DNA from: a virus
DNA: 64,000 bases
IMG/VR virus record: IMGVR_UViG_3300042868_005520
Coordinates: 1-64,000 of that record
Direction: 5' to 3' (one strand)
Numbering within the stretch: the stretch's first letter is position 1; every line of letters starts with the position of its first letter. A program made the translations under genes and the position numbers. Positions 21,127 through 46,508 of the stretch are shown here, piece after piece. The notes beneath the pieces were generated by a model that worked only from the letters and a program-made list of their open reading frames with translations, was not told the origin of the DNA and made no database searches.

Positions 21127-21834
21127 ATGAGCAGACTTGTGATCAAGTTCCCTACGCGGAACCGACCTGAAAAATTCAAAACCGTCTTTTCCCGCTACCT
21201 CACCTTCTTGAGTGGACGGCATGATGTTCGTTTCATCCTGTCAATGGATGAGGATGATCTCACCATGAATAATCCTGAAATGCACCAGTGGATTTCCACT
21301 CGTGCAGAGAACGCACAGATTGAGTGCTTCTACGGGAACTCTAAGTCCAAGATTGAGGCTTGCAATGCCAACCTAGAGGGTGTTGACGGCGATGTACTGC
21401 TGTTGGCATCAGATGACATGGTGCCCGTGCAGATGGGATACGATGATATAATCTTTGGTGCTTTCTCTCAAGCCTTTCCTGACTTTGATGGTGCAATCAA
21501 GTTTTGGGATGGTCTGCGTCCAAAGGAAGACCCGCTGATGACTCTCACAGTCATGGGCTTCCCCCTGTACAAGCAGTTCGGATACATTTACAATCCTGAG
21601 TACAAGTCTCTGTACTGCGACAACGAGCAGACACAGGTTTGTGCTGCGCTGAACAAGTTGCGCCGTTGCGACCTGTGCATTATTCAGCACCAGTGGACGG
21701 GTGAGCCATTCGACACCCTCCACGCTCGTAACGAAAACGCGGAGATGTACGGGGTGGACGGTGAAACATTCAAGCGCAGAGGCGCAAATAAATTTGATAT
21801 GGAGGAAATGTTCAATGCCAGTATCAGCAAGTGA
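21127..21834 (+). CDS. Glycosyltransferase (GT-A fold)
   Basis: KFPTRNRP, D.DD, LASDDM DxD motif, YCDNE. Confidence 0.75.
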   Translation: MSRLVIKFPTRNRPEKFKTVFSRYLTFLSGRHDVRFILSMDEDDLTMNNPEMHQWISTRAENAQIECFYGNSKSKIEACNANLEGVDGDVLLLASDDMVPVQMGYDDIIFGAFSQAFPDFDGAIKFWDGLRPKEDPLMTLTVMGFPLYKQFGYIYNPEYKSLYCDNEQTQVCAALNKLRRCDLCIIQHQWTGEPFDTLHARNENAEMYGVDGETFKRRGANKFDMEEMFNASISK

Positions 21835-22453
21835 AATCAAGTTCAGCATCCTGATGCTGTCCATTCCCGAACGCATCGAATCCATGACCGCTGCGGTGAA
21901 GCATCTACAAGAGCAAGCCGATGCTGTAGGACAAGGCAAGGCGGTAGAGATTCTTGTGCTGTTGGACAATCGCTCCAAGAGCATTTCCGAGAAGCGTAAT
22001 GACCTCCTGCAAATGGCACGGGGTAAGTACATTGCGTTCTTGGACGATGACGATGCAGTCAGCAAGGACTACATGAGTAAGATCCTGACCGCTATTGACC
22101 AAAACGATGTTGACTGCATCTCATTCAACCAGTGGTGCAGCATCAACGGCGAACCAATGGATGTGGAGTTCGGCATCGGAAATCCCCACGGGCAGTTGTG
22201 GCGGGACGAAGACGGCTTCCTTGGTGACATCAAGCGTCCACCGTACCATATGTGCCTGTGGCGCAGTGATATTGCCAAGAGTGAATCTTTTAATCCTGTA
22301 TATGGAGCCAACGGGCAGTCTTCGGAAGACATTGATTGGCTCATGCGCCTGTACCCCAAGATTCAGACGGAACATCACATTGATGACTCGTTGCACGGGT
22401 ACATCTATAGTTCCGAGACAACCACCTCCCTTGTTCCACAGGAGCAGCAATGA
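21815..22453 (+). CDS. Glycosyltransferase family 2
   Basis: SILM.SIP.R, KRN.LL..ARGKYIAFLDDDD, ED.DW motifs. Confidence 0.85.
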   Translation: MPVSASEIKFSILMLSIPERIESMTAAVKHLQEQADAVGQGKAVEILVLLDNRSKSISEKRNDLLQMARGKYIAFLDDDDAVSKDYMSKILTAIDQNDVDCISFNQWCSINGEPMDVEFGIGNPHGQLWRDEDGFLGDIKRPPYHMCLWRSDIAKSESFNPVYGANGQSSEDIDWLMRLYPKIQTEHHIDDSLHGYIYSSETTTSLVPQEQQ

Positions 22454-23142
22454 AAGTAATATCGTTCAGCCTGTGGGGCGACAAGCCCACATACACCGTT
22501 GGTGCGGTCAAGAATGCCGATCTTGCGGCTACGCTGTTTCCTGATTGGACTTGTATGTTCTACTGCTTTAGTTCTGTTCCAAAAGAAATAATTGCAGAAC
22601 TACAATCCCGTAAGAATGTGATTGTACGGATGATAGACGGTGATTATAATTCGGAAGACAGCCGTGGTATGTTCCACCGATTCCTTCCCGCTGATGAAGA
22701 AGGCGTAGAGTACATGATGTCCCGTGACACAGATTCCCGTCTATCCGAGCGTGAGCGGCTTGCTGTTGAAGAGTGGTTGGCTAGTGGAGCCGATCTCCAT
22801 GTTATGCGTGATCATCCGTATCACGGTGCGCCAATACTTGGTGGTATGTGGGGGGTTAAGGGCGGAAAACTCAAGGGTATTGCTCGTGACATGGAAGAGT
22901 TTCAGCCAAGCAGCGATAAGGGACAAGACCAGTCTTTCCTGTGGGAATGGGTGTGGAGCAAGGTTACTGATGATGAAATCACCTGCTGTGTACACGATCC
23001 ATTTTTTCAGAAGGCTCCGTTCCCTACTGGTGCTACTCGTGGAGAAACCAATGGTGGAGTGTGGTTCGTAGGACAAGTCTTTGACGAGAACGACAAATAC
23101 AATAGTGAACAGGACACAAATTTGGTTAGAGATATCCTATGA
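22450..23142 (+). CDS. Glycosyltransferase-like protein
   Basis: ISFSLWG..P.Y..GA..N, RD.DSR, MRDHP.H..PILGGMWG, DQ.FL motifs; island context. Confidence 0.65.
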   Translation: MKVISFSLWGDKPTYTVGAVKNADLAATLFPDWTCMFYCFSSVPKEIIAELQSRKNVIVRMIDGDYNSEDSRGMFHRFLPADEEGVEYMMSRDTDSRLSERERLAVEEWLASGADLHVMRDHPYHGAPILGGMWGVKGGKLKGIARDMEEFQPSSDKGQDQSFLWEWVWSKVTDDEITCCVHDPFFQKAPFPTGATRGETNGGVWFVGQVFDENDKYNSEQDTNLVRDIL

Positions 23143-23510
23143 AAATTGAAGTATCAAATGGTGAAATAGCAGACAAGGTTTCTATTTTGATGATAAAGAA
23201 AGAACGCCTTATTGACGACAGCAAGATCATAAATGTATCAAAAGAACTAGAGGAGATTACTCCTGATTTTTTGATAATAATGAATTTTGATCACCCTCTG
23301 TATCTTGAACTCAAACAAGTAAATTCTTCTCTTTGGGATATAGAAGATCAAATTCGTGATAAAGAACGAGTAAAACTTTTTGACGATGAGTTTGTCTCTC
23401 TTGCTAGAGCAGTATACTTTATAAACGACAAAAGAGCAGAAATAAAGAAGACAATAAACACTATTACGGGATCTTCTTTGACTGAAGAAAAGTCCTATGC
23501 CAAATATTGA
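23139..23510 (+). CDS. DUF6165-like protein
   Basis: SNGEI.DK.SIL.IK, LWDIED.IR, LARAVY..ND.R..IK..IN...GS.L.EEKSY. Confidence 0.8.
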   Translation: MKIEVSNGEIADKVSILMIKKERLIDDSKIINVSKELEEITPDFLIIMNFDHPLYLELKQVNSSLWDIEDQIRDKERVKLFDDEFVSLARAVYFINDKRAEIKKTINTITGSSLTEEKSYAKY

Positions 23511-24192
23511 TGTGAATCCAAATACACTATATGTTCACCATCATCTTGGTCTAGGTGACCATATCATTTGCAATGGTCTTGTCCGATTCCTGTTGAAACA
23601 AACCAATGCTAATGACCTTTGGTTGGTGGTGAAACGCAAAAACTTCAATAATGTCTCTAGAATGTTTTTGGACGATTCTCGCATCAAGTTTATACCCGTT
23701 GACGAGGATAAGAATTTCTACGAACTTCCATTAGAATGGTCTAATGTTCGTTTGGCTAGAATTGGATTTGAGCGATGCCGAGAGACAGATTTTGATGTTT
23801 CATTTTATGACTCCACAGGAATCCCTTTCACGGAAAGATGGAATTCTTGGTACTATCAGCGAGATTTAGAATGTGAACAAACGATGATGCAGGAATTGTT
23901 ATTGCCTGAAAAGTTTGTGTTGGTTCACGATACTTCTAGTGTTGGTATTTTTGATCTAAAGATCAATACCAATTTACCTGTGATTCGTGTTTCGCGTTTG
24001 AACAGTGAGAAAACCATGTTTGATTGGATTGGTGTTATAGAACGAGCAACTGAAATACACTGCATAGATTCGTCTTTCATTCATCTAGTGAATTCTGTTG
24101 ATTTGGTAACCGACTCTTTGTTCTATCACAAAATAAAGTCAAGCAAGATGCAGATTTGTTTTCGTAAAAATTGGTCTGTAATAGAATATTAG
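23497..24192 (+). CDS. Glycosyltransferase-like protein (GT9/GT-B-like)
   Basis: HHHLGLGDHII.NG and EIHCIDSSF motifs. Confidence 0.6.
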   Translation: MPNIDVNPNTLYVHHHLGLGDHIICNGLVRFLLKQTNANDLWLVVKRKNFNNVSRMFLDDSRIKFIPVDEDKNFYELPLEWSNVRLARIGFERCRETDFDVSFYDSTGIPFTERWNSWYYQRDLECEQTMMQELLLPEKFVLVHDTSSVGIFDLKINTNLPVIRVSRLNSEKTMFDWIGVIERATEIHCIDSSFIHLVNSVDLVTDSLFYHKIKSSKMQICFRKNWSVIEY

Positions 24193-24204
24193 GAATATGT
24201 TTTT

Positions 24205-24948
24205 ATGAATAGTAGAATCAATGTATTGATCCCTATGGCTGGTCGTGGAGAACGATTTTCTTCCGTGGGTTATGATCTTCCAAAACCATTAATAGAAATT
24301 AATGGACGACCCATGATAGAATGGGCATTGCGTAGTTTAGATGTGGATTTTTACCTACACAATTTTATTTTTGTTGTACGAGACTATCAGAATGATGAAA
24401 TCAACAATCGGATTGCATCAGTTCTAACCTGTCTTGTGCCAAACAATAAAATTGTAAAAATTGATTATGTCACGGAAGGACCAGCGTGTACTTGCTTGCT
24501 TGTTCGTGATATGATTGACAACGATTCTCCTCTTATGGTTGGAAACTGCGATCAAATTATGAGATGGAATGGATCATACTTTGTAAGCAGTTGTTTAAAT
24601 TCTCCATATGATGGAGTAGTGGTTACCTATGATGAAAGCACTCCAAAAAATAGTTACGCCAAATTGAATTCTCGTGGAGATGTGATTCGAATCGAAGAAA
24701 AAAATGTCATAAGCAATGTGTCTTTGAATGGTATACATTTTTGGAAACACGGTTCGGATTTTGTTAGTTCTGCGGATTCCATGATAGAAAGTAATGAGCG
24801 GTATAACAATGAATTTTATGTTGGACCAACATATAACCACATGATCAAGACGGGAAAGCGAGTTGGCATTTTTCACATACCACGCGAATGTCATAATCCA
24901 GTCGGTGTTCCGAGTGATCTTGGAGACTTCTTGGAAAAAAATAAATGA
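24205..24948 (+). CDS. Sugar nucleotidyltransferase, BcbE-like
   Basis: IPMAGRGERF...GY..PKPLI.I.G.PMI, TEGPA.T, N.DQ, EK.VIS, NNEFYV.P.YN, G.P.DL. Confidence 0.85.
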   Translation: MNSRINVLIPMAGRGERFSSVGYDLPKPLIEINGRPMIEWALRSLDVDFYLHNFIFVVRDYQNDEINNRIASVLTCLVPNNKIVKIDYVTEGPACTCLLVRDMIDNDSPLMVGNCDQIMRWNGSYFVSSCLNSPYDGVVVTYDESTPKNSYAKLNSRGDVIRIEEKNVISNVSLNGIHFWKHGSDFVSSADSMIESNERYNNEFYVGPTYNHMIKTGKRVGIFHIPRECHNPVGVPSDLGDFLEKNK

Positions 24949-25274
24949 AGAAATATAAACTTAAAGATATGCATAGAGGATGGTTAATTGGTGATTTTGA
25001 ACCGTCTGTGCTAAGGACGCAAGATTTTGAGGTGGGTGTTCTCACTCACAAAAAAGGCGAACATTGGGATGAACACTATCACAAGATAGCAACCGAAATC
25101 AATGTGTTGGTTGAAGGAAGTATGACGATAAACGGCATACATATAGAGGTTGGAGACATCTTTATCATTGAGCCAAACGAATCCTCTGCTCCAATTTTTC
25201 TAGAGGATTGTAGAGTGCTGTGCGTGAAAACCCCTTCTGTGATTGGAGATAAATATGCAACTATTCGTGAATGA
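24945..25274 (+). CDS. Cupin-domain protein
   Basis: GW.IGDFEP, HYHKIATE.N...G.M, GDIF...P cupin motif. Confidence 0.8.
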   Translation: MKKYKLKDMHRGWLIGDFEPSVLRTQDFEVGVLTHKKGEHWDEHYHKIATEINVLVEGSMTINGIHIEVGDIFIIEPNESSAPIFLEDCRVLCVKTPSVIGDKYATIRE

Positions 25275-26448
25275 GTCTGCACTTGACAGCGAAAAGTATT
25301 TCGTAGTCACCTACAAGTTGGAGTCCGACAAGAACCTACGCGATGCCGCTTGGAACATTGCCATCGGTCAGAGTGTTGGTAATCCAAATGTGCGGAACCG
25401 TTGGGAGACAGAGGATTTGTTTAAGAATCACTCTTGTCTAATACTCGCTGACGAGATTGAACTACAGAACAAGACATCAGGAGAAGTCAAGATTGCGTTC
25501 CCCGTGATCAACACTGATTGGGAAACAGATGGAATCAGCCATCTGCTGTGTCAGATCATGGGTGGTCATGTTGATATTGACTTGGTGAAGAAGTGCCGCG
25601 TAGTCAAGTTGGATCTTCCACAAAGTGTTACCAAGCACTTCGCAGGACCAAAGTTTGGCATCAGTGGTATGAGGAAGTTCACGGGTCAGTACGAAAAGCC
25701 ACTGCTTGGCGCGATCATCAAGCCCAAGATCGGTATCACTCCAGAAACCCTGTTGGACATGGTTAAAGAACTCGTTGATGGCGGAGTTGACTTCATCAAG
25801 GAAGACGAGATCATGTCAAATCCGTCTTTCTGTCCACTAGACAAGCGTGTGCACATGATTTCAAATTATCTGCGCTCACAATCTCGTAATGTAGTATTTT
25901 GTCATACCATCAACTGTGATCCGCACATTCTTGCGGGTCGTGTTTGCAGAATCCACTCCCTTGGCGGAAACGGTGTACACATCAATGTGTGGAGCGGATA
26001 TGGTGCTTACAACAGCATTCGAAAACTAGATCTTCCAATCTACCTGCATTTCCAAAGCAGCGGTGCAAAGGTTGCGACAAGCGTAAACAATCAGTTCAGT
26101 ATTAGTTGGTCTGTGATTTGTCAGTTGGCTACTCTCATGGGTGTAGACACCATTCAGACAGGAATGGTGGGAGGTTACAGCAATGACGATCCTCAAGAAA
26201 TACTTGAGTGCATCAAGGTGCTACGAGAAGGAAACACAGTTCCTGCACTCAGTTGTGGCTTGCATCCAGGATTGGTTGACAAGATTACATCTCTTGTCGG
26301 AAATGACTATCTTGGGAATGCGGGTGGAGCCATTCACGGTCATCCAAACGGAACATTGTCTGGTGCGAAAGCGATGCGACAATCCGTTGATAAGACATAC
26401 GGAACAGAATATACACACGCAATTGAAAAGTGGGGAAAGATACTATGA
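25255..26448 (+). CDS. RuBisCO-like protein (form IV, RLP)
   Basis: GPKFGI.G.R, IIKPKIG, GGVDFIKEDE (Lys201/Asp203/Glu204 equivalents), SCGLHPG, GGAIHGHP.G...GA.A.RQ; GGAG RBS. Confidence 0.93.
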   Translation: MQLFVNESALDSEKYFVVTYKLESDKNLRDAAWNIAIGQSVGNPNVRNRWETEDLFKNHSCLILADEIELQNKTSGEVKIAFPVINTDWETDGISHLLCQIMGGHVDIDLVKKCRVVKLDLPQSVTKHFAGPKFGISGMRKFTGQYEKPLLGAIIKPKIGITPETLLDMVKELVDGGVDFIKEDEIMSNPSFCPLDKRVHMISNYLRSQSRNVVFCHTINCDPHILAGRVCRIHSLGGNGVHINVWSGYGAYNSIRKLDLPIYLHFQSSGAKVATSVNNQFSISWSVICQLATLMGVDTIQTGMVGGYSNDDPQEILECIKVLREGNTVPALSCGLHPGLVDKITSLVGNDYLGNAGGAIHGHPNGTLSGAKAMRQSVDKTYGTEYTHAIEKWGKIL

Positions 26449-27065
26449 AGTGGAAAGAAGATTTGACTCACGACATTAGATTTGGTTCGGTTGTAGACGA
26501 TATTGACCACCCAATTCCTGAATTGGGATTGAAACCAGCAAGCCCTCCTGCTGAATTCACAGATGATAATCATGCGGCTATTCAAAAGGCTATAGATCGG
26601 TGCAAGAATAAGCCAAAGACATTCCTAGAAATAGGTGTCTGTAGAAACGGTCATCATTCATCGACACACACCATATTTAAGAATCTTCCGAGTGATGGAG
26701 TTTATCTTGGAGTTGATCTTGATGATAAAACCTTCCTAGACAACAAAGAAAATGGAATTCATACTATAAAAACATCTTCTTCCAACTACGAAGAAGTAGT
26801 ATCTAAATTGAAATCTCTTGGTGTGGATAAGTTGGATTTTATATTTATAGACGGATGGCACAGTATCAATCAGGTTTTATCTGATTGGGAATACACCAAT
26901 CTTCTTTCTGATGGCGGTGTTGTTGCTTTACACGATACTACTGCTCATCCTGGTCCTTTCTTCTTTATGAAATTTTTGAATAGATCCACATGGGAAGTGC
27001 ACCCTAATCTGTGTCCAAACGATCACGGTTTGGGGTATTGCTTGAAGAATCAGGATACAAAATGA
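26445..27065 (+). CDS. Class I SAM-dependent methyltransferase (Methyltransf_24-like)
   Basis: FLEIG, FIFIDGWHS, L..GGVVALHD motifs. Confidence 0.82.
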   Translation: MKWKEDLTHDIRFGSVVDDIDHPIPELGLKPASPPAEFTDDNHAAIQKAIDRCKNKPKTFLEIGVCRNGHHSSTHTIFKNLPSDGVYLGVDLDDKTFLDNKENGIHTIKTSSSNYEEVVSKLKSLGVDKLDFIFIDGWHSINQVLSDWEYTNLLSDGGVVALHDTTAHPGPFFFMKFLNRSTWEVHPNLCPNDHGLGYCLKNQDTK

Positions 27066-28060
27066 TAAAGGTTCTATTTGTTACTGCGGTTGGAAATGCC
27101 AAATCATATGACTACTTAACAGATGGTATTCTTCACGGACTGAAGACTCGAAAAGATAAGTTTGATGTATATGAGTGCTTTGGTATGAAGCATCTGTATA
27201 AAAATTATCCAACTGATGATAGTCCTGCTTTGTTCGGTAGAAGAAATCTGAATGGTGGACCAAACGAACTAGGTTTGGGTCTGTGCATCAAGATGGTTGC
27301 TGACAAATTTTTTGATGTGATTGTTTTTGATTGGAGAACATCGAGCAATTTTTGGAACAATCATGGGCATTGTCCGTATTGGAAAGAAACAGTTGCAATA
27401 CAAAATGTTGCATTCTCTGCATATCCAAAAGAGAAGATTGTATTCTTGGATAGTAGCGATGACAATGTTGGGAAGTATGAGATGTTTACTCAACCGTTTG
27501 TTGGTAAATCAACATACTTCAAACGAGAATTGTATATTGATGATCCATACTTTCATCCCATAGACATACCTTTTGCTGCGGAAAAGGGAAGCCCTTTGAT
27601 TTTGTCTAATTCTAAAGACAAGTATCTATCCCATGTAATACCAGAAAAAAAAGATACCTATATTTTTAAAGATGAATCTTCTTATTATGGAGATTACGCA
27701 AAGTCTTATTTCGGGGCAACATGGAAAAAGATTGGTTGGGGATGCTATCGCCATTCCGAGATCGTGTTTGCTTCATGTGTTCCTTTGTTTCCAGATATTA
27801 CTCACTGCCCTATGCGAACACTGACTTTTTTTCCAAAAAGCCTTTTTCAAGAGGTTCTTAATCGCGGTGTGTTGCGTAATACCGCCACAAAGGTACAGAA
27901 GTATTCGGATATGTACACTTATGAAAACATTGAAATTAACGAATCTGCTATTGACAAGTCCTGGTATGATGATATTCTTTACCAAGTATATGATCACGCT
28001 CACAAAAATCTCACCACTACAGCAATGGCAGATTATGTTCTGTCTAAACTAGACATATGA
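27062..28060 (+). CDS. Glycosyltransferase-like protein (GT-B)
   Basis: DYL.D...HGL, YFKREL, YY.DY..S.FG.T.KK.GW.C.RH.EI....C.P motifs; context. Confidence 0.6.
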   Translation: MIKVLFVTAVGNAKSYDYLTDGILHGLKTRKDKFDVYECFGMKHLYKNYPTDDSPALFGRRNLNGGPNELGLGLCIKMVADKFFDVIVFDWRTSSNFWNNHGHCPYWKETVAIQNVAFSAYPKEKIVFLDSSDDNVGKYEMFTQPFVGKSTYFKRELYIDDPYFHPIDIPFAAEKGSPLILSNSKDKYLSHVIPEKKDTYIFKDESSYYGDYAKSYFGATWKKIGWGCYRHSEIVFASCVPLFPDITHCPMRTLTFFPKSLFQEVLNRGVLRNTATKVQKYSDMYTYENIEINESAIDKSWYDDILYQVYDHAHKNLTTTAMADYVLSKLDI

Positions 28061-28878
28061 AACAATCAATTGTATTTCGCGGTAGTATATGCAATGACCG
28101 ATACAAGACTAATTTTTTGAAAGACTCTGTTTCGGAACTGCGTAAATGGTTTTTTGGTGAAATCATAATTTCTACATGGCATGGTCAAGAAGAAAATGCC
28201 AATTGTATCAGTGGTGTTGATAAGATTGTTTACACTCAAGACCCCGAATCGGGATTGGTTGCACATAATCGGAGGCAGCATATTTCGTTCAGAGAAGGAG
28301 TAAAGGCTAGTTCTGGCGATGTTGTTTTTGTGACACGAACAGATTGTCTTCTGACGAAGGATCCATTTTATTTAATGGACTGCAATCAAGATCATGATAC
28401 TCGTTTTCGTTTTGTTAGCAGAAGAATGGTTGCTGGAAACATGATGACATTTTCCCCAAACCAAGGTTCTTCTTCTAGTGAAAAGTGGGACGGCTATTTT
28501 AGACTGGGAGATTGGTTTCATATGGGAATGCGTAAAGACATTCTTTTGTGGGGAGATGTTTTAGAATTTTCAGAACAGTTAAATGCAGATGTGAATGGAA
28601 TACAGACACCGAATCGTTCGGTTGAACAGTTGTGGCTGATGTCTGCCATAAATAAATACAGCAAAGACAAGATAGATTTGCAGAAATATCAGTTTATGGA
28701 TGTATATGATGCATGGGCTGGAATTCTAAATAATTTTAGAGTAGTCAATACCCGATCCACTGCGGGAGTACACAACTTAAACTGGAATCATAAGTCCGAG
28801 TTTCATCCTCTGTATGTGACAGAGGATGAATACAATACTGCTTTTTTAAATCGTTATGGAACTATCATAAAAGGATAA
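28057..28878 (+). CDS. WavE-like polysaccharide biosynthesis protein
   Basis: IVFRG.I, EIIISTW, N..RQ..S...G, RTD, D.F..G, EQ motifs. Confidence 0.65.
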   Translation: MKQSIVFRGSICNDRYKTNFLKDSVSELRKWFFGEIIISTWHGQEENANCISGVDKIVYTQDPESGLVAHNRRQHISFREGVKASSGDVVFVTRTDCLLTKDPFYLMDCNQDHDTRFRFVSRRMVAGNMMTFSPNQGSSSSEKWDGYFRLGDWFHMGMRKDILLWGDVLEFSEQLNADVNGIQTPNRSVEQLWLMSAINKYSKDKIDLQKYQFMDVYDAWAGILNNFRVVNTRSTAGVHNLNWNHKSEFHPLYVTEDEYNTAFLNRYGTIIKG

Positions 28879-28880
28879 TC

Positions 28881-29801
28881 GTGGAAACCAAAGACTTCCT
28901 GTTTTTCAACTATTCGTGGGTGGTTAACTCTACTTTCTACTTTGAGTCCTTTGCCAAGAAAGGACACAGCATAGACATTGTTACAGAAAAAGATCTCCAT
29001 TCTTTTGTTCCGCAGAACAAGTACAAAAATGTTGTGCTATATCTCCATGAACCGTGGAGTCTTCCTATAACTGATCACCTAATAAACACATACTTCAACG
29101 ATGCTGTTTTGATTCAGCATGATGATACGGATTTTGAAGATGTTCAATATTGGAGCACTCGCGTTCCTGATCTGGTGATGCAGAGGGAATATACAGACAA
29201 TACTAAAAATCCTCGTGGTTCTGCTATGGGTGCTTTCCATTTCCCCATTCATTCGTGGTACAATCCGTCCATAACAGAAAAACCGTATGATCTGTGCTTC
29301 CTGGCAAACATGACGCATCCTAGACGAGTCATGTTTGCCAGGAAGATGATGGAGTTGATGAACGGTAGACTAAATCATTTGGTTTGGAAAGTAAACATAG
29401 AACCTCATGTGAATACATCTTCTCAGTTCTACAATAAGAATGCCTTCAGTGAGCAGAAGGAAGACACAAAGATAATTGTTAACAAGACCAAGATTGGACT
29501 GAACGATTTTGGAAATTCTTATGAACAGTGGAGAACATGGGAATACGCAAGTGCTGGTACGGCAATACTTATGCCAAAGATGAAAACCAAGTGTGTATCA
29601 GAAGGCTTTATGCCTTTCAACGAATACACTGTATTTCGTGATGATTACTCTGATTTGGAGGAGAAGATACTTTTCCTGCTAGAAAACAATCGGTATATGG
29701 AATACGGCACGATGGCTAAAGAAGCCTATGATAAAAGACACAATCCCGAAAAGTGTTTTGAGTTTTATTACGAGCAAATTATGAGGTATGCCAAACAATG
29801 A
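28881..29801 (+). CDS. Glycosyltransferase (GT1-like/CgeB-type C-terminus)
   Basis: KIGLN..G......RTWE....G..ILM, DLEEKI..LL C-terminal domain. Confidence 0.65.
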   Translation: METKDFLFFNYSWVVNSTFYFESFAKKGHSIDIVTEKDLHSFVPQNKYKNVVLYLHEPWSLPITDHLINTYFNDAVLIQHDDTDFEDVQYWSTRVPDLVMQREYTDNTKNPRGSAMGAFHFPIHSWYNPSITEKPYDLCFLANMTHPRRVMFARKMMELMNGRLNHLVWKVNIEPHVNTSSQFYNKNAFSEQKEDTKIIVNKTKIGLNDFGNSYEQWRTWEYASAGTAILMPKMKTKCVSEGFMPFNEYTVFRDDYSDLEEKILFLLENNRYMEYGTMAKEAYDKRHNPEKCFEFYYEQIMRYAKQ

Positions 29802-30238
29802 ATATCATTTCTCATCGTGGAAATCTATATGGACGAGATCCTTCACAGGAAAACTCTACACAGTATATTCAAAAAGCACTTGAACACGGATTTGATGTTG
29901 AGATAGATGTTTGGTATAACACCGATCTAAAGCAGTTTTATCTTGGACATGATATGCCAACATATTCCGTGACAACTTCTTTTTTAAAAATTGATAGGTT
30001 GTGGTGTCATGCTAAAGATGAAGAATGTTTTTCTAAACTTCTTGATCTTGGGGTGAATTGTTTTTGGCATGAAAATGATAGATTTACACTTACATCACAC
30101 GGCATTGTTTGGTGCTATCCCAACAATTGGTGTGAGCGAGGAGTAACCGTGGTTTTTGATCCACCTTCATCTGAAATACTTTCAAAAAACATTTTTGGTA
30201 TATGTGTTGATGATCCTGTGAATTGGAGAAAAATCTAG
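29798..30238 (+). CDS. Glycerophosphodiester phosphodiesterase-like protein
   Basis: IISHRGN..G, EN, GFDVEIDVW, LGHD, LWCHAK, FWHE.D..TLTS, GIC.D. Confidence 0.8.
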   Translation: MNIISHRGNLYGRDPSQENSTQYIQKALEHGFDVEIDVWYNTDLKQFYLGHDMPTYSVTTSFLKIDRLWCHAKDEECFSKLLDLGVNCFWHENDRFTLTSHGIVWCYPNNWCERGVTVVFDPPSSEILSKNIFGICVDDPVNWRKI

Positions 30239-30852
30239 TGAAACCATTTATAGTATCATCTCATTACAATGAGGATTTGTCTTGGATTGTGCATCAAACA
30301 GAGTACAATTATAAGATATACACAAAGAATCACAATCCATCAGATTTCATTCCGAAAGACAAGATTGTTTACATTCCCAATAAAGGGAACGAAGCGTCTT
30401 CTTATTTGTGGTATATCATAAACAACTACGATTGTCTTCATGAGAGCGTTGCTTTTGTTCATGGTCACTATACGGCATGGCATCAGAATATGGACATTCT
30501 GACCGCTATAAGAAAATACGATGGCTCGGATTACATGACTCTGAATGATCTTTCGCGGAGAAATGTGTTTCACGATAATTGTGGGATAGAAGGAAACGCT
30601 ATAGGAAATTGGAATTGGGCTAGGCAAGGCATGATTGAGATTGGTATGGAAGTTCCTATTCCAACAAGACTCGAATTTACTCAGTGTGCTCAGTTTGTTG
30701 TTACAGCCAGCAGGATACGGTGCAATAGTTTGAATTTCTATAAGCGTTGTATGGATTGGTTGATGAGGACTCCATTTCCTGACGCTATCTCTGGTAGAGT
30801 TTTTGAGCATATCTGGCATTACATAATGACACACAAGGAAATTGAAAAATGA
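30238..30852 (+). CDS. DUF3431-like protein
   Basis: S.YNEDLSW, PNKG.EA..YL.YII.NYD.L, F.HGH...WH, AQF.V, FE..WH; GTG start with GGAG RBS (track starts at 30223). Confidence 0.75.
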   Translation: MKPFIVSSHYNEDLSWIVHQTEYNYKIYTKNHNPSDFIPKDKIVYIPNKGNEASSYLWYIINNYDCLHESVAFVHGHYTAWHQNMDILTAIRKYDGSDYMTLNDLSRRNVFHDNCGIEGNAIGNWNWARQGMIEIGMEVPIPTRLEFTQCAQFVVTASRIRCNSLNFYKRCMDWLMRTPFPDAISGRVFEHIWHYIMTHKEIEK

Positions 30853-31943
30853 TGTATGACTATATGATCGTTGGTTCTGGTCTATTTGGGGCAATATTTG
30901 CCAGACAGATGACTGATGCGGGTGCACGGTGTCTTGTTGTAGACAAACGCAAGCATATTGGTGGAAACTGCTATACCCGTAACGAAGGTGGAATTCATGT
31001 TCACGAATACGGTCCACATATATTTCATACGAGCAGTGACCGCGTATGGGAATACATGAATCGGTGGACTCGGTTCAATCATTTTGTGTATCGCCCCCGT
31101 GTCATTCATGGAGACAACCTATACTCGTTCCCCATCAACCTGTTTACACTATATCAGTTGTGGGGGGTAAAGACACCTCAAGAAGCACAAAACAAATTGG
31201 CTCAAGTGCGGCTCACCATTCCATCCCCGTCAAACCTAGAAGAATGGGTACTGTCCCAAGTGGGAGAAGAAATTTACGAGAAGTTCGTGAAGGGCTACAC
31301 CATGAAGCAGTGGAACCGCGATCCCAAGGATCTTCCTGCGTCCATCATCAAGCGACTTCCCATTCGGCTCACTTATGATGACAATTACTTTGATGACAAG
31401 TATCAAGGTATACCTGTCGATGGATACACGCCCATCTTTGAAAAACTATTGAGTGATATTCCCGTTGAAACAAGTGTAGACTATCTTAAAGATCGTGAGC
31501 GTCTTGAGAATATGGCAAAAAAGATTGTATACACGGGAGCCATAGACGAATTCTTTGGCTGCGATCTAGGCAATCTTGAGTGGAGAAGTCTGAGGTTTGA
31601 ACATCAGACACTTCAGATTCCTGACTATCAGGGAGTAGCAGCAATAAACTACACCGATGCCACGATCCCATATACTCGCGTGGTGGAACACAAGCATTTC
31701 ATATTTGGAAAACAGGATCATACTGTCATCACCCACGAGTACCCACAGAATTGGGATAACACAAAGGAAAAGTTTTATCCAGTGACTGACGATAGAAATA
31801 ATGAACTGTATATTCAGTATAAGAATAGGATTGACACCGAGAGATACATATTCGGTGGTCGTTTGGCGGATTACAAATATTACGATATGCACCAAGTTGT
31901 AGGGTCTGCCCTAACACGCAGTGAAAAGGAAATTGAAAGATGA
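30849..31943 (+). CDS. glf: UDP-galactopyranose mutase
   Basis: IVGSGLFG FAD motif, HIGGNCY, YGPHIFHT, KYQGIP..GY, GRLA.YKYYDMHQV. Confidence 0.96.
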   Translation: MMYDYMIVGSGLFGAIFARQMTDAGARCLVVDKRKHIGGNCYTRNEGGIHVHEYGPHIFHTSSDRVWEYMNRWTRFNHFVYRPRVIHGDNLYSFPINLFTLYQLWGVKTPQEAQNKLAQVRLTIPSPSNLEEWVLSQVGEEIYEKFVKGYTMKQWNRDPKDLPASIIKRLPIRLTYDDNYFDDKYQGIPVDGYTPIFEKLLSDIPVETSVDYLKDRERLENMAKKIVYTGAIDEFFGCDLGNLEWRSLRFEHQTLQIPDYQGVAAINYTDATIPYTRVVEHKHFIFGKQDHTVITHEYPQNWDNTKEKFYPVTDDRNNELYIQYKNRIDTERYIFGGRLADYKYYDMHQVVGSALTRSEKEIER

Positions 31944-32881
31944 AAGCATTAGTAACAGGTGGAGCGGGTTTTATTGGATCGAATTTGGTTGATCGGCTAA
32001 TTTTGGAAGGTCACGAAGTCACAGTGATAGACAACGAATCATCTGATGCCCATGATCACTTCTATTGGAATTCAGCAGCAAAAAACTACAAGTACGATAT
32101 CAATGATTACACGATGGTTCGTGAATTGTATGAAGGAATAGACATGGTGTTCCATTTTGCTGCTGAGGCTCGTATTCAGCCGTGCATTGTTGATCCACTA
32201 AAGGCTGTGAAATCCAATATGCTTGGTACTGCTAGTGTGTTGCAGTGCGCTCGTGTATGCGGTGTAAAGCGTGTCATCTATTCATCCACATCATCCGCTT
32301 ATGGACTGAAGAATACTCCTCCTCTTGTTGAGACAATGCCAAACGATTGCCTTAACCCATACTCGGTGACCAAGACAGGTGGTGAGGAATTATGTAAAAT
32401 GTTCTCCAAACTGTACGGCTTAGAGACAATCATATTTCGATACTTCAATGTGTACGGAGAGCGTCAGCCACTGCGTGGACAATATGCTCCAGTGATTGGC
32501 ATCTTCTTGCGTCAACGGGCAGCAGGAGAATCCATGACCATTGTTGGTGACGGAGAACAGAGGAGAGACTTCACCCATGTTAGCGATGTGGTTGAAGCCA
32601 ATATCAAGGCTTCTCAGTTTATTGCTCCTCGTTATAATATTACCGACAATGGCTCGTGTCAGACTTATCGAGGATGGGAATGGGGTCAGATTTACAATAT
32701 TGGAACAGGAACCAATCATTCAGTGAATGAGATTACTGCATTTATGGGTGGTCAAACTGTAAATATTCCTCCACGCGCAGGGGAATCCCGAATCACTCTT
32801 GCTAATGCAAATAAAGCAAAGGAACATCTTGGATGGATTCCCCAAGTTCGTCTTGAAGAGTGGATTGCCAAGCATAAATAA
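31940..32881 (+). CDS. NAD-dependent nucleotide-sugar epimerase/dehydratase
   Basis: TGGAGFIGS, SSTSSAYG, YSVTK (YxxxK), RYFNVYG, GDGEQRRDF. Confidence 0.95.
   Translation: MKALVTGGAGFIGSNLVDRLILEGHEVTVIDNESSDAHDHFYWNSAAKNYKYDINDYTMVRELYEGIDMVFHFAAEARIQPCIVDPLKAVKSNMLGTASVLQCARVCGVKRVIYSSTSSAYGLKNTPPLVETMPNDCLNPYSVTKTGGEELCKMFSKLYGLETIIFRYFNVYGERQPLRGQYAPVIGIFLRQRAAGESMTIVGDGEQRRDFTHVSDVVEANIKASQFIAPRYNITDNGSCQTYRGWEWGQIYNIGTGTNHSVNEITAFMGGQTVNIPPRAGESRITLANANKAKEHLGWIPQVRLEEWIAKHK
32873..32880 (+). promoter_or_regulatory. Putative late promoter CATAAATA before GT2-TPR gene
   Basis: One mismatch from T4 late box TATAAATA; AAGGAG RBS follows. Confidence 0.6.
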
Positions 32882-32901
32882 CCGTACAAGGAGATCGTGA
32901 A

Positions 32902-34110
32902 ATGTCTACAGTATGCCTCTCAATGATCGTTAAGAATGAAACGCACATTATCCATGAATGCCTCAATTCAATGTGGCAAAACATTGACTATTGGGTGATC
33001 GTGGACACAGGATCCACAGACGGAACCCAAGACCTTATCCGCACCTTCTTTGCAGAGAAGGGAATTCCTGGCGAACTCATTGAGAAGCCGTGGGTAGACT
33101 TTGGCTACAACCGTAGCGAAGCCCTTGCTCTCTGTGATGGCAAGGCAGACTACGCTTGGATGATTGATGCCGATGACAAGATCACAGGCAATTTTGTGTA
33201 TCCCAACGGCAAGAATCTCGTGCACGATGCGTATGCTCTCAAGTGTGGACGAGACGGATGCGTGTGGTGGCGTAATCAAATCTTTAAAACGGGTATTGGT
33301 TGGAAGTATGTCGGCGTTCTCCACGAGTACGCCCATTGCGAAAAGCAGCCACTAAATCAATTCCGTATTGAGGGTGATTATGCTCTTGAGGCGCGTACAC
33401 TTGGTGCGCGTAATGTAAATATTACACAGGTAGAGAAGTACACAAAGGACGCAGAGATGCTGCTCAAGGCTCTAGAAACAGAGCCAACGAATTCTCGCTA
33501 CCAGTTCTACCTTGCTCAGTCGTACTTTGACTCACAGCAGTGGGACAACGCCATTGCAGCGTACTACAAGCGCGTAGAGATGGGTGGATGGGAAGAAGAG
33601 TGCTACTACTCCTTGTTCCGCATTGCCCTGTGTGAAATCTCAAAGAATTCTGATTGGTCAATTGTTCAGCAGAAATTCCTTGACTCGTATGACTACCGTC
33701 CGTGCCGCGCAGAACCGCTTCACGCCATTGCCAGATTCCTTCGCATGAACGGTCGTCCACGCGCTGCGTACCTGTTTGCGAAGGAAGCCGCGCAGTTGCC
33801 GTACCCACAGCAGGACATTCTCTTCATTGATACAAATGTGTACAAGTGGATGGCATTGGATGAACTAGCCGCTACGGCATTCTTTACCCACGATTTCAAG
33901 ATTGGCTACTCCGCTTGCGAAACCCTGCTAAAGCAGAGCCGCTTGCCAGAGAGTGAAATTGAACGAGTTCAGAAGAACCACGCTGCGTACCTTGAGAAAG
34001 TCAAGGAAGTGGATGCACTGACACAGAAACTCGCCAAAGACACCAAGATGCCCCCGCTTGCTCCCGTGCTAAATACAAAGCAGCACACCTTTAAAAAGCG
34101 GAGAAAGTAA
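32902..34110 (+). CDS. Glycosyltransferase family 2 with TPR repeats
   Basis: LSMIVKNE...I..CL.S, VDTGSTDGT, IDADD, GVLHE; C-terminal helical repeats (FYLAQSY, AIAAY). Confidence 0.9.
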   Translation: MSTVCLSMIVKNETHIIHECLNSMWQNIDYWVIVDTGSTDGTQDLIRTFFAEKGIPGELIEKPWVDFGYNRSEALALCDGKADYAWMIDADDKITGNFVYPNGKNLVHDAYALKCGRDGCVWWRNQIFKTGIGWKYVGVLHEYAHCEKQPLNQFRIEGDYALEARTLGARNVNITQVEKYTKDAEMLLKALETEPTNSRYQFYLAQSYFDSQQWDNAIAAYYKRVEMGGWEEECYYSLFRIALCEISKNSDWSIVQQKFLDSYDYRPCRAEPLHAIARFLRMNGRPRAAYLFAKEAAQLPYPQQDILFIDTNVYKWMALDELAATAFFTHDFKIGYSACETLLKQSRLPESEIERVQKNHAAYLEKVKEVDALTQKLAKDTKMPPLAPVLNTKQHTFKKRRK

Positions 34111-34535
34111 TGGCATCAGGATACTACGATATTAACGCACAGCAGTACTCCACATTTAATTTTCATGTGGAGTATTACGACGAGAACGGCAATCGCGTAG
34201 ACTTAACCAATTACACCGCACGATTCCATGTGCGTCCGTTTGCCAATAGTTCGGTGAAGTACATGGAGATTAGTACTTCGGGTGTTACTAGTGGTGGTAT
34301 CACAGGTGAGTACACAGGCACTGCTGGCATTAGCGGAGCGGGTCGAGTCTACATGAACAAGGGCGAGACGGGTGCGGCTCTCACGGGAGGCATTCTTATT
34401 ACTGCCGATGCCACCACAATGGGATACATTCGAACAGGCTCGTGGAAGTACTCTATTGATCTTGTTCAAAGCGGTGTAACTACCGATGAATTGCTGTACG
34501 GTCAATTCATTGTTACTCCCAAAGCCACGAGATGA
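34110..34535 (+). CDS. Hypothetical, probable virion beta-sandwich (BppU N-terminal-like)
   Basis: VDLTNYTARFHVR, Y.I.L, LL.G.F.V.P pattern; CTAAATA at 34069. Confidence 0.5.
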   Translation: MASGYYDINAQQYSTFNFHVEYYDENGNRVDLTNYTARFHVRPFANSSVKYMEISTSGVTSGGITGEYTGTAGISGAGRVYMNKGETGAALTGGILITADATTMGYIRTGSWKYSIDLVQSGVTTDELLYGQFIVTPKATR

Positions 34536-35299: not shown

Positions 35300-35701
35300 A
35301 TGACACGAGACGAACTACTAGCATTTCACGCAGAACTCTGCACCGAAGCCCGTGATCTGATGAGCCTAAAGAACCGCGACTACGCTGGCAAGGAAGGCAC
35401 AGAGCCGTTTGCCAACTTTACCCGCGTGGAGTCAATGGGCATCTGCAAGACCGAACAAGGTTTCATGGTGCGCCTTACCGACAAGATGAGCCGCCTGTCT
35501 TCCTTTGTACACGCAGGAAAAATGAATGTACAGGACGAGTCATTTATGGACACCTGTGTGGATGTAATTAATTATATGGTTTTACTTGCTGCATACTTAA
35601 AGGATAAAGAAGCGCAGAAGCAAGACGCTCCCACAATCAAATATACAAGCACACCGATTCCTGTTGATTTAAATATAGGTGGTGGTAAACTAGGGGCATG
35701 A
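35300..35701 (+). CDS. Nucleotide modification-associated domain 1 (Nmad1/DUF1599-like, MazG-like fold)
   Basis: KN.DYA, PFANF, VRL.DK.SRL, ES..DT..D..NY motifs. Confidence 0.8.
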   Translation: MTRDELLAFHAELCTEARDLMSLKNRDYAGKEGTEPFANFTRVESMGICKTEQGFMVRLTDKMSRLSSFVHAGKMNVQDESFMDTCVDVINYMVLLAAYLKDKEAQKQDAPTIKYTSTPIPVDLNIGGGKLGA

Positions 35702-36630
35702 TACGACACCTTGGCTACGCCTGTATGAATCTGTCCTTGTCAGAAGGACAGAAAAAAGTAGATCGGTTCTTCACAGATCGAACTCTACGGATGGATCGCT
35801 TTACCCTTGAGCGTGTGGGAGAACTCGGTACGCGGAACGCCGCCGATCTTCTTCCCATCCTCAAGTGGAATGTCGCCAACGGCATCCACTTCTTCCGCAT
35901 TGGCAGTGGGATGTTTCCGTTCATGGATCATCCCACGCTTGGGTACGGGATGGGTGCGCTATCCCCAAAACACAGCGATTCTATTGTTAACAGCCTTGCA
36001 GCAGCGGGTGCGTATGCCAAGGAACACGGCATACGCTTGTCATGCCATCCTGGTCCATACACTTGCATTGCTTCACCTGACCACGATATAGTAGACAAAA
36101 GCATTTTATGTTTGCGGATGCACTCCCTTATCGCCGACCTGTTGGGCTGCGGCGATGAGTTTGCCATTAATATTCATGTGGGTGGTGTGTACGGCGACAA
36201 GACAGACACAGCAAAACGATTCACTGATGCTTTTAATTCCCTACCGCTAAACATTCAAAATCGTTTAACAGTTGAGAACGACGACAAAGCGTCTATGTGG
36301 AGTATGAGCGATCTGTATGAACTACTGTGGTCGCGATGCCAACGCTTAAAGTTGGTGTTGGATGTGCACCACCACCGCTTCTGCAAACGAGAGTTGCTGC
36401 ACCACGCAGCAGACATGGCGTTCACCACATGGGACGGCTTTTGTGAAATTCCAAAGGTTCACTACTCGGAATCAAAAGCAGGTGCTAGACCCCAAGCCCA
36501 CTCGGACTACATTAGTGAAGAAATTCCTGTACTGTCGGATACCGTTGAGTACGATGTAATGATTGAAGCCAAGGCAAAGGACTTGGCACTTCTCCAATAC
36601 CGAAAGGCTTACGCCCCATGCTTGCTGTGA
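35698..36630 (+). CDS. uvsE: UV damage endonuclease UvdE/UvsE
   Basis: LGYAC.N, FFRI.S..FP, RLS.HPG, ENDDK, D.HHH, HYSES, HSDY, MIEAKAKD. Confidence 0.95.
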   Translation: MIRHLGYACMNLSLSEGQKKVDRFFTDRTLRMDRFTLERVGELGTRNAADLLPILKWNVANGIHFFRIGSGMFPFMDHPTLGYGMGALSPKHSDSIVNSLAAAGAYAKEHGIRLSCHPGPYTCIASPDHDIVDKSILCLRMHSLIADLLGCGDEFAINIHVGGVYGDKTDTAKRFTDAFNSLPLNIQNRLTVENDDKASMWSMSDLYELLWSRCQRLKLVLDVHHHRFCKRELLHHAADMAFTTWDGFCEIPKVHYSESKAGARPQAHSDYISEEIPVLSDTVEYDVMIEAKAKDLALLQYRKAYAPCLL

Positions 36631-46500: not shown

Positions 46501-46508
46501 ATACGGGG

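What the first reader, a model, noticed from the sequence alone, without database searches (positions are those of the whole stretch)
25255..26448. Phage-encoded RuBisCO-like protein with a remodelled active site
Seen (alignment by eye, form I numbering): K175/K177 (KPK) and K201/D203/E204 (KEDE) are kept, so carbamylation and Mg binding are plausible. E60 appears as G (AIGQSVG), N123 as G (IMGG), H294/R295 as Q/S (LHFQS), H327 as Q (DTIQTG) and loop-6 K334 as Y (VGGY). Known: these residues are needed for RuBP carboxylation. So this is not a CO2-fixing auxiliary gene but a divergent form IV enzyme, full length and embedded in unambiguous phage sequence. RuBisCO-superfamily genes are unusual in phages.
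Basis: partly seen in the sequence, partly recalled or inferred. Interest (0 to 1): 0.85.

Follow-up and report, generated by a model that had tools for sequence, protein, structure and literature searches.

The report
Phage RuBisCO-like enzyme in sugar-activation cassette
A T4-like aquatic phage carries an intact relative of the CO2-fixing enzyme RuBisCO that cannot fix CO2; in phages, bacteria and archaea it sits beside (sometimes fused to) a sugar-activating nucleotidyltransferase in surface-sugar gene clusters, which suggests an untested sugar-building job for this fold.

Summary
Window 25255-26448 (+) encodes a 397-aa RuBisCO large-subunit homologue. It keeps K175, K177, K201, D203 and E204. 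It has G, G, Q, S, Q and Y at E60, N123, H294, R295, H327 and K334.

It lies in an unambiguous T4-like myovirus and is under strong purifying selection. It is not a carboxylase and belongs to no characterised RLP family.

It is not new as a kind. Jaffe et al. 2018 (PMC6389311) described this phage/Beckwithbacteria "form IV-like" clade, with function unknown. I found it on 178 IMG/VR contigs, and this scan has reported it before on other DNA.

Context adds a functional lead:
- The gene sits in a 13-kb glycan island.
- It belongs to a cassette of nucleotidyltransferase, small cupin, RLP and miniature GDPD-like phosphodiesterase.
- The RLP-nucleotidyltransferase pair is kept in 77 of 81 phage loci and 27 of 28 cellular loci (SAR11, Verrucomicrobia, CPR, DPANN).
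- Natural fusions join the parts.

My best reading is inferred, with no assay behind it. The RLP is a Mg2+/carbamate-dependent enolising isomerase acting on a keto-sugar phosphate. Its product is nucleotide-activated for glycan decoration. I found no paper in the searched library describing this linkage.

The parts
25255..26448 (+). RuBisCO-like protein (RLP), 397 aa, 'form IV-like' clade
   Evidence: Pfam PF00016/PF02788. Fold TM 0.89 to form III RuBisCO. Active-site map. dN/dS 0.056.
24205..24948 (+). Sugar-phosphate nucleotidyltransferase (NTP_transferase fold), the invariant partner of the RLP
   Evidence: Pfam PF00483. Full-length weak matches to RmlA-long, AglF and archaeal GlmU. Best PDB match 4evw at 1.6e-16. 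Next to the RLP in 77/81 phage loci and 27/28 cellular loci. Fused to the RLP in P0127, P0276 and P0277.
24945..25274 (+). Small cupin, 109 aa, with motif G-x5-H-x-H-x4-E-x6-G. It overlaps the NTP-transferase stop by 4 nt and the RLP start by 20 nt.
   Evidence: Motif read from the sequence. Weak Cupin_2 PDB match 3d82. Atlas neighbours are cupins. Present in 55/81 phage loci. Fused at the C-terminus of P0276 and P0277.
26445..27065 (+). Class I SAM methyltransferase (Methyltransf_24 / CmcI-like). Its ATG overlaps the RLP stop (ATGA).
   Evidence: Pfam. Sequence at the junction. Present in 35/81 phage loci, typically just downstream of the RLP.
29798..30238 (+). Miniature GDPD-like phosphodiesterase, 146 aa. 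In most other phages it lies directly after the RLP; here four inserted genes displace it by 3.3 kb.
   Evidence: tblastn hits in 69/80 phage loci, median offset +1209. Invariant H6 R7 E35 D37 H51 and others. Model pLDDT 96.5. Foldseek prob 1.0 to glycerophosphodiester phosphodiesterases. Fused N-terminally to an RLP in P0156.
21127..34535 (+). Glycan-biosynthesis island inserted between regA and dCTP deaminase. Over roughly 24-32 kb its G+C falls to 38-41%, against 43-51% elsewhere in the window. It holds GT2, DUF6165, the cassette, WavE, a GT1-like gene, DUF3431, UDP-galactopyranose mutase, an SDR epimerase/dehydratase and GT2-TPR.
   Evidence: Pfam scans. Composition.

Best explanation
The gene encodes a non-carboxylating RuBisCO-superfamily enzyme of the 'form IV-like' clade.

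**Chemistry (inferred).** It keeps the carbamylated-lysine/Mg2+ centre (K201, D203, E204), K175/K177 and the main-chain P1 phosphate cradle (S379, G381, G403, G404). I therefore expect it to bind a phosphorylated 2-keto sugar or ketol and enolise it, acting as a tautomerase or 1,3-isomerase, as the characterised RLPs do. Y334 would replace K334 on loop 6. Glycines at positions 60 and 123 would enlarge the pocket.

**Pathway (inferred).** It works with its invariant neighbour, a sugar-phosphate nucleotidyltransferase that makes an NDP- or CDP-linked product. Optional steps would come from the small cupin (a further isomerisation or epimerisation), the miniature GDPD-like enzyme (making or breaking a phosphodiester, for example transferring the sugar-phosphate to an acceptor) and an O-methyltransferase.

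**Use (inferred).** The glycosyltransferases of the island would use the product to decorate a surface glycan. In the phage case this would most likely remodel the host envelope during infection.

**Shown:** the fold, the residue pattern, purifying selection, the gene linkage and the fusions.
**Inferred:** the reaction type, the order of steps, the substrate and the biological role.
For: **Enzyme:**
- Superfamily membership and intact fold.
- Metal/carbamate triad, KPK motif and P1-site glycines are invariant in 53 diverse clade members and 80 phage loci. E60G, N123G, H294Q and K334Y are also invariant, so the site is a selected new one and not decay.
- dN/dS is 0.056.

**Linkage:**
- RLP-NTP-transferase adjacency is kept in 77/81 phage loci.
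- It is kept in 27/28 cellular loci from Pelagibacter, Verrucomicrobia, Planctomycetes, Bacteroidota, Patescibacteria/Beckwithbacteria and DPANN archaea, although gene order changes.

**Natural fusions:**
- RLP-NTPtr (P0127).
- RLP-NTPtr-cupin (P0276, P0277).
- GDPD-like-RLP (P0156).
- NTPtr-GDPD-like (L095 ORF).

**Partners:**
- The NTP-transferase keeps the G-x-G-x-R...K, D and E-K signature columns. It matches sugar-1-P nucleotidylyltransferases over its full length.
- The GDPD fold is confirmed with its catalytic residues kept.

**Surroundings and coupling:**
- Surroundings are glycan genes in the window and in cellular loci: RmlD-like, GDP-mannose dehydratase and CMP-sugar cytidylyltransferase.
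- The cupin/RLP and RLP/MTase overlaps (20 nt and ATGA) indicate co-translation.
Against: - No biochemical datum exists for any clade member.
- The cassette holds no kinase or mutase, so the source of the phosphorylated substrate is unknown.
- The order of the RLP and nucleotidyltransferase steps is not determined.
- The nucleotidyltransferase's closest solved relative (4evw) is itself uncharacterised.
- An earlier scan note says related BcbE/KfoE proteins are called fructosyltransferases. I could not test that relationship. If it holds, the partner could be a transferase and not an activating enzyme.
- The distal (P2) phosphate site is basic (K/R295, K/R298, H327) in much of the clade but S295/Q327 here. 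Substrates may therefore differ within the clade.
- Whether the phage uses the glycan on the host envelope or on virions is not addressed by any data.
Confidence: 0.6

Rival explanations
1. Same cassette, different order. The nucleotidyltransferase acts first and the RLP enolises a nucleotide-linked keto-sugar, for example an NDP-4-keto-6-deoxy sugar. The enlarged pocket (G60, G123, P66) would take the nucleotide. The cupin would act as a 3,4-ketoisomerase or 3,5-epimerase.
For: - Glycines at 60 and 123 and loss of T65/W66 open the partner-subunit side of the site.
- Basic residues at 295/298 in much of the clade could hold a diphosphate.
- An SDR epimerase/dehydratase lies within 8 kb in 31/81 phage loci and in the window.
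- Small cupins do such steps in known NDP-sugar pathways (established knowledge of RmlC and FdtA).
Against: - No known RuBisCO-family enzyme uses a nucleotide-linked substrate.
- The dehydratase is absent from most cassettes.
- The cupin gives no Pfam match to RmlC or FdtA families.
- The cupin is missing in about a third of the loci.
Confidence: 0.2
2. A salvage enzyme of the methionine or 5'-deoxy-nucleoside type. It would resemble MtnW, or the Rhodospirillum rubrum RLP that works with a cupin, recycling methylthio- or deoxy-ribulose-1-phosphate during infection.
For: - The RLP + cupin pairing recalls the R. rubrum MTA-isoprenoid shunt (recalled from memory, Erb et al. 2012; not checked here).
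- The nucleotidyltransferase gives a weak IspD N-terminal match.
- Radical-SAM genes occur in 13 phage loci.
Against: - MtnW models score 133-162 bits against cut-offs of 409-514.
- The clade is separated from the MtnW representative P0242 in the tree.
- The N123 position is G, where the MtnW representative has K.
- No mtnA, mtnK or mtnB-type neighbour turned up in 109 loci.
- Neighbours are glycan genes.
Confidence: 0.07
3. A true, if unusual, RuBP carboxylase acting as a carbon-fixing auxiliary gene.
For: - Carbamylation and Mg2+ residues and K175/K177 are retained.
- The best NCBIfam and PDB matches by score are form III enzymes.
Against: - E60, N123, H294 and K334 are all replaced, invariantly.
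- The form III model scores 186 bits against a cut-off of 497.
- No psbA was found in the 113-kb record. The island holds no phosphoribulokinase; the rest of the record was not searched for one.
- The gene also occurs in heterotrophs such as SAR11.
Confidence: 0.02
4. A non-catalytic or decaying passenger gene with no function for the phage.
For: It lies in a low-G+C, horizontally mobile island. It is present in only 2 of 201 sampled genomes of one Pelagibacter-type genus.
Against: - dN/dS is 0.056.
- About 100 invariant columns across sequences down to 55% identity.
- The active-site pattern is conserved.
- Conserved partners and fusions.
Confidence: 0.03

Closest known systems
'Form IV-like' RuBisCO-related proteins of phages (some Myoviridae) and Beckwithbacteria; Jaffe, Castelle, Dupont & Banfield 2018/2019, Mol Biol Evol 36:435 (PMC6389311)
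   Same: - Phage-borne, with sequences drawn from IMG/VR and including myoviruses.
- Divergent from all RLPs, with key residues unlike form IV.
- In my tree, a starred 22-row group (SH-aLRT 96) joins the window and other phage sequences with a Beckwithbacteria MAG homologue, apart from other forms.
   Different: - That paper left the function open.
- Its text does not mention the nucleotidyltransferase, glycan context or fusions.
- Here the clade is also found in SAR11, Verrucomicrobia, Planctomycetes, Bacteroidota and DPANN genomes.
- I did not compare their sequences directly.
MtnW/YkrW 2,3-diketo-5-methylthiopentyl-1-phosphate enolase (form IV RLP; PDB 2oem, 2zvi)
   Same: - Same fold (TM 0.84).
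- Keeps K175, K201, D203 and E204.
- Lacks carboxylase residues.
- Likely the same class of chemistry: Mg2+-assisted enolisation of a 1-phospho-2-keto compound.
   Different: - Separate clade and far below the family cut-offs.
- G where MtnW has K at position 123.
- Keeps K177, which MtnW lacks.
- No methionine-salvage neighbours.
Form III RuBisCO (Thermococcus kodakarensis, Pyrococcus horikoshii; PDB 3a12, 2cwx)
   Same: - Best sequence and structure matches.
- KPK and KxDE motifs.
- S379, G381, G403 and G404.
   Different: - E60G, T65N, W66P, N123G, H294Q, K334Y and G380C.
- 186 bits against a cut-off of 497.
- No AMP-pathway partners (DeoA, R15P isomerase).
OiaX/OiaT RLPs of D-apiose catabolism (Carter et al. 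2018, cited in PMC6389311)
   Same: RLPs acting on a keto-sugar-acid phosphate. They show that the fold supports chemistry beyond enolisation.
   Different: - 151 bits against a cut-off of 700.
- Separate from the OiaX-like representative P0226.
- Those enzymes are catabolic, whereas this context is biosynthetic.

Membership tests
RuBisCO large-subunit superfamily | N-terminal alpha/beta domain plus C-terminal TIM barrel (Pfam PF02788 + PF00016) | tested here: met
   PF00016 scores 128 bits (cut-off 30) and PF02788 scores 21.7 bits (cut-off 20.7). The model has pLDDT 90.6 and TM 0.89 to 3a12.
Bona fide RuBisCO (forms I-III) | Full catalytic set: E60, N123, K175, K201, D203, E204, H294, H327, K334 | tested here: not met
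   K175, K201, D203 and E204 are kept. E60G, N123G, H294Q, H327Q and K334Y are replaced.
Bona fide RuBisCO (forms I-III) | Score over the NCBIfam curated cut-offs (TIGR03326 form III, NF003252, NF010002 form II) | tested here: not met
   186 of 497, 178 of 438 and 109 of 489 bits.
Bona fide RuBisCO (forms I-III) | RuBP carboxylation in vitro | not testable with these tools
   Needs a 14CO2 assay.
MtnW/YkrW DK-MTP-1-P enolase | Family model score, Lys at the N123 position, methionine-salvage neighbours | tested here: not met
   133 of 514 and 162 of 409 bits. G at position 123. No salvage genes nearby.
OiaX 3-oxo-isoapionate-4-phosphate decarboxylase | Family model score | tested here: not met
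   151 of 700 bits.
'Form IV-like' phage/Beckwithbacteria clade (Jaffe et al. 2018) | Encoded on phage (myovirus) DNA and grouping with Beckwithbacteria homologues apart from other RLP and RuBisCO forms | tested here: met
   T4-like context. A 53-row clade is separated at SH-aLRT 99. Within it, a starred 22-row group (SH-aLRT 96) joins the window and phage sequences with the Beckwithbacteria and Patescibacteria homologues L091 and L090.
'Form IV-like' phage/Beckwithbacteria clade (Jaffe et al. 2018) | Key residues divergent from canonical form IV while some are shared | tested here: met
   Signature G60 N65 P66 G123 K175 K177 K201 D203 E204 Q294 Y334 C380.

The most novel reading that the evidence does not exclude
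This RLP clade catalyses a reaction new to the RuBisCO superfamily and gives the fold its first biosynthetic role. It would make an unusual keto- or branched sugar phosphate that its fused or adjacent nucleotidyltransferase activates. With the mini-GDPD and cupin, the product would be installed as a phosphodiester-linked or ketose decoration on surface glycans of SAR11, CPR/DPANN cells and phage-infected hosts.
Probability: 0.45. Interest if true: 0.75.

Novelty: new member of a known kind. Interest (0 to 1): 0.55.

Why it matters
All RLP functions I know of (from my own knowledge; not surveyed here) are salvage or catabolic. This clade is locked to a nucleotide-activating enzyme inside glycan islands. 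It is abundant in aquatic T4-like phages and also sits in flexible surface-glycan regions of SAR11 and of tiny CPR/DPANN cells. If the model holds, it would give the RuBisCO fold a biosynthetic role. It would also point to an unknown sugar in marine cell surfaces, which are the very structures phages recognise.

The cassette is small, at two to four genes, and needs no other partner genes. That makes it directly testable in vitro.

As a discovery of 'a phage RLP' it is not new. The value lies in the functional lead.

Tried and rejected
- **GenBank phages.** megablast of the island and tblastn of the RLP against GenBank phages gave no match.
I could not inspect the contigs that encode the fused proteins or the 313-kb contig of P0087.
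- **Complex prediction** of RLP with the nucleotidyltransferase returned no verdict: score 0.00, controls not run. This counts neither for nor against binding.
- **Tabita et al. 2007 (IV-GOS clade)** could not be read. My recollection that GOS RLPs may be this clade is untested.
- **Literature searches** for RLP + nucleotidyltransferase/cupin/polysaccharide and for RLP + genome neighbourhood/viral found no paper describing the cassette.
- **KfoE/BcbE lead from an earlier scan note.** The literature calls KfoE a fructosyltransferase needed for fructosylation of the E. coli K4 capsule. I had no KfoE sequence, so I could not test whether it is related to the window's nucleotidyltransferase.
- **ESM Atlas** gave only generic names for the nucleotidyltransferase and the cupin.
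- **The 242-aa protein** that follows the RLP in cupin-less cassettes has no Pfam or PDB match and no BLAST similarity to WavE.
- **Host clues.** No tRNA in the window and no psbA in the record. The host remains unknown.
- **Promoter and terminator scans** in the island were at chance level for promoters.

Full report
**Observation**

Window 25255-26448 (+) is an open frame of 397 codons. A GGAG ribosome-binding site lies 6 nt before the ATG. Homologues begin at the same methionine.

Pfam places it in RuBisCO_large (4.6e-37) with the N-terminal domain also over its cut-off. An AlphaFold2 model built on 35 relatives has mean pLDDT 90.6. It superposes on CABP-bound form III RuBisCO at TM 0.89.

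- K175/K177 = K156/K158
- K201/D203/E204 = K182/D184/E185
- E60 -> G38
- N123 -> G104
- H294/R295 -> Q267/S268
- H327 -> Q301
- K334 -> Y308

I add T65 -> N43, W66 -> P44 and G380 -> C334. S379, G381, G403 and G404 are kept.

**Is it a working gene?**

Against a 94%-identical phage copy, dN/dS is 0.056. Across 35 relatives down to 55% identity, about 100 columns are invariant.

In 80 phage loci the pattern G60 N65 P66 G123 K175 K177 K201 D203 E204 Q294 Y334 S379 C380 G381 G403 is fixed. The same pattern holds in 53 diverse clade members, including cellular ones. The 'missing' carboxylase residues are therefore a selected alternative active site and not decay.

S295 and Q327 are traits of the window's subgroup only. 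Half of the phage copies have K295 and 31 have H327.

**Where it sits**

The window is the first 64 kb of a 113-kb IMG/VR record estimated 62% complete. It carries T4-type genes:
- tail sheath, portal and gp23-type capsid
- helicase and SbcC-like nuclease
- DNA polymerase and RNR
- gp45, gp44, gp62, regA, RNase H, dCTP deaminase and UvdE

The capsid protein is about 54% identical to those of T4-like cyanophages. No psbA was found in the record, and the host is unknown.

Between regA and the dCTP deaminase lies a 13-kb island (21.1-34.5 kb). Over roughly 24-32 kb its G+C is 38-41%, against 43-51% elsewhere in the window. It is made of glycan genes:
- GT2 and DUF6165
- an NTP-transferase, a small cupin, the RLP and a SAM methyltransferase
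- WavE, a GT1-like protein and a 146-aa protein
- DUF3431, UDP-galactopyranose mutase, an SDR epimerase/dehydratase and GT2-TPR

The cupin overlaps the RLP start by 20 nt. The methyltransferase ATG overlaps the RLP stop as ATGA.

**The conserved unit**

A scan of IMG/VR found 178 contigs encoding a relative, and I examined 80 of them.
- The NTP-transferase lies next to the RLP in 77 of 81 loci, counting the window.
- The cupin is present in 55 loci.
- The methyltransferase is present in 35 loci.
- The 146-aa protein is found by tblastn in 69 of 80 loci. It is normally directly downstream of the RLP. In this window four inserted genes have pushed it 3.3 kb away.

The 146-aa protein has the HRG...EN...ExD...HD motifs of glycerophosphodiester phosphodiesterases. 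It folds with pLDDT 96.5 and matches GDPD structures at Foldseek probability 1.0. It is therefore a miniature GDPD.

In the 18 loci without the cupin where I saw it, a 242-aa protein of no known family follows the RLP.

**Beyond phages**

A scan of one genome per prokaryote species found 28 loci. They include:
- a complete Pelagibacter chromosome (58% identity)
- several Pelagibacteraceae single-cell genomes
- a complete Verrucomicrobiae chromosome
- Planctomycetes, Bacteroidota and Balneola
- Patescibacteria and Beckwithbacteria
- Woese-, Nano- and Micrarchaeota

In 27 of 28 an NTP-transferase homologue flanks the RLP, upstream in some and downstream in others. The mini-GDPD or the cupin is often nearby. 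Neighbouring genes there are again glycan genes: RmlD-like, GDP-mannose dehydratase and CMP-sugar cytidylyltransferase.

Only 2 of 201 sampled genomes of the Pelagibacter-type genus hold the gene. That fits a flexible surface-glycan island.

Two very short 'MAG' contigs (L084, L085) have the phage gene order and are probably mis-binned phage DNA.

**Fusions**

Predicted proteins in the large databases join the parts:
- P0127 is RLP-NTP-transferase.
- P0276 and P0277 are RLP-NTP-transferase-cupin.
- P0156 is mini-GDPD-RLP.
- A Micrarchaeota ORF is NTP-transferase-GDPD-like.

Gene order varies while the linkage persists across three domains of hosts and viruses. Together with the fusions, this is strong evidence for a single pathway.

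**Phylogenetic place**

HMMER against 1.8 billion representatives shows a step. Clade members score 190-506 bits (37-57% identity). All other RuBisCO/RLP representatives score 177 bits or less.

In a maximum-likelihood tree of 142 sequences, the clade of 53 rows is separated from the rest at SH-aLRT 99. The clade contains phage and cellular sequences interleaved.

NCBIfam labels identify MtnW (P0242), OiaX-like (P0226) and form III-type (P0221, P0177) representatives, all on the other side of that split. The window protein itself is far below every curated cut-off.

Within the clade, a starred 22-row group (SH-aLRT 96) joins the window and the other phage sequences with the Beckwithbacteria and Patescibacteria homologues. 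This matches the 'form IV-like' group of Jaffe et al. 2018. They reported about 80 phage sequences, some from Myoviridae, left the function open, and do not mention this gene context.

**Mechanism: what is shown and what is inferred**

Shown:
- an intact RuBisCO-type active-site scaffold with the Mg2+/carbamate residues and K175/K177
- the main-chain phosphate cradle
- loss of the residues that handle CO2 addition and the partner-subunit lid (E60, T65, W66, N123, K334)
- an obligatory genomic partnership with a nucleotidyltransferase that keeps the G-x-G-x-R...K, D and E-K columns typical of sugar-1-phosphate nucleotidylyltransferases

Inferred from the established chemistry of the superfamily (enolisation of 1-phospho-2-keto substrates by MtnW and other RLPs):
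- The RLP enolises or isomerises a keto-sugar phosphate taken from host metabolism. The cassette has no kinase or mutase.
- The product is nucleotide-activated.
- The cupin adds an isomerisation or epimerisation where it is present.
- The mini-GDPD makes or breaks a phosphodiester, for example passing a sugar-phosphate to an acceptor.
- The methyltransferase O-methylates.

I put 0.6 on this general model and 0.2 on the variant in which the RLP acts on the nucleotide-linked sugar. Small weights go to salvage, carboxylase and no-function readings. The substrate cannot be named from sequence.

**Novelty and verdict**

- The gene is a new member of a published but uncharacterised clade.
- 'RuBisCO-like gene in a phage' is not unusual in environmental T4-like phages.
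- This scan has already reached the same cassette reading on other genomes. I formed my reading before opening those notes, and my tests here agree with them.
- I found no paper in the searched library that describes the linkage to a nucleotidyltransferase, cupin and mini-GDPD, or its fusions.
- The link between this RLP clade and those partners remains an attractive, directly testable lead to a new RLP function.

Noticed in passing
P0195 (database protein, not in the window): A 583-aa protein joins an N-terminal TIR domain to a complete RuBisCO-like protein of another RLP lineage (28% identity to the window RLP). It could be a defence-type fusion.
   Followed up: no
L010:3793-4518 and 17 other phage loci: In all 18 loci that hold it, none of which has the small cupin, a 242-aa protein with no Pfam, PDB or WavE similarity follows the RLP directly. 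It may replace the cupin's role.
   Followed up: partly
window 35698-36630 (+): A UvdE UV-damage endonuclease gene lies in the phage, just past the glycan island.
   Followed up: no
window 30223-31943 (+): DUF3431 and a UDP-galactopyranose mutase (Glf) suggest that the island's glycan contains galactofuranose.
   Followed up: no
L084 and L085 (genome contigs): Contigs of 3.3 and 4.6 kb are binned as Crocinitomicaceae and Methanobacteriota MAGs. They carry the phage gene order NTP-transferase-cupin-RLP-miniGDPD at 59-61% identity and are probably mis-binned phage fragments.
   Followed up: partly
L101, L098, L099, L102, L097 (Pelagibacteraceae loci): Many cellular cassettes carry two NTP-transferase paralogues flanking the RLP (about 37% and 27% identical to the window's) plus the mini-GDPD. 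This hints at two activation steps or two donors.
   Followed up: no
window 46395-48170 (+): A tail-fibre protein with collagen-like repeats matches many PHROG tail-fibre families.
   Followed up: no
P0161, P0175, P0278 (database proteins): These are IF-2B (ribose-1,5-bisphosphate isomerase-type) domains fused to form III-like RuBisCO, the fusion already described by Jaffe et al. for form III-c.
   Followed up: no
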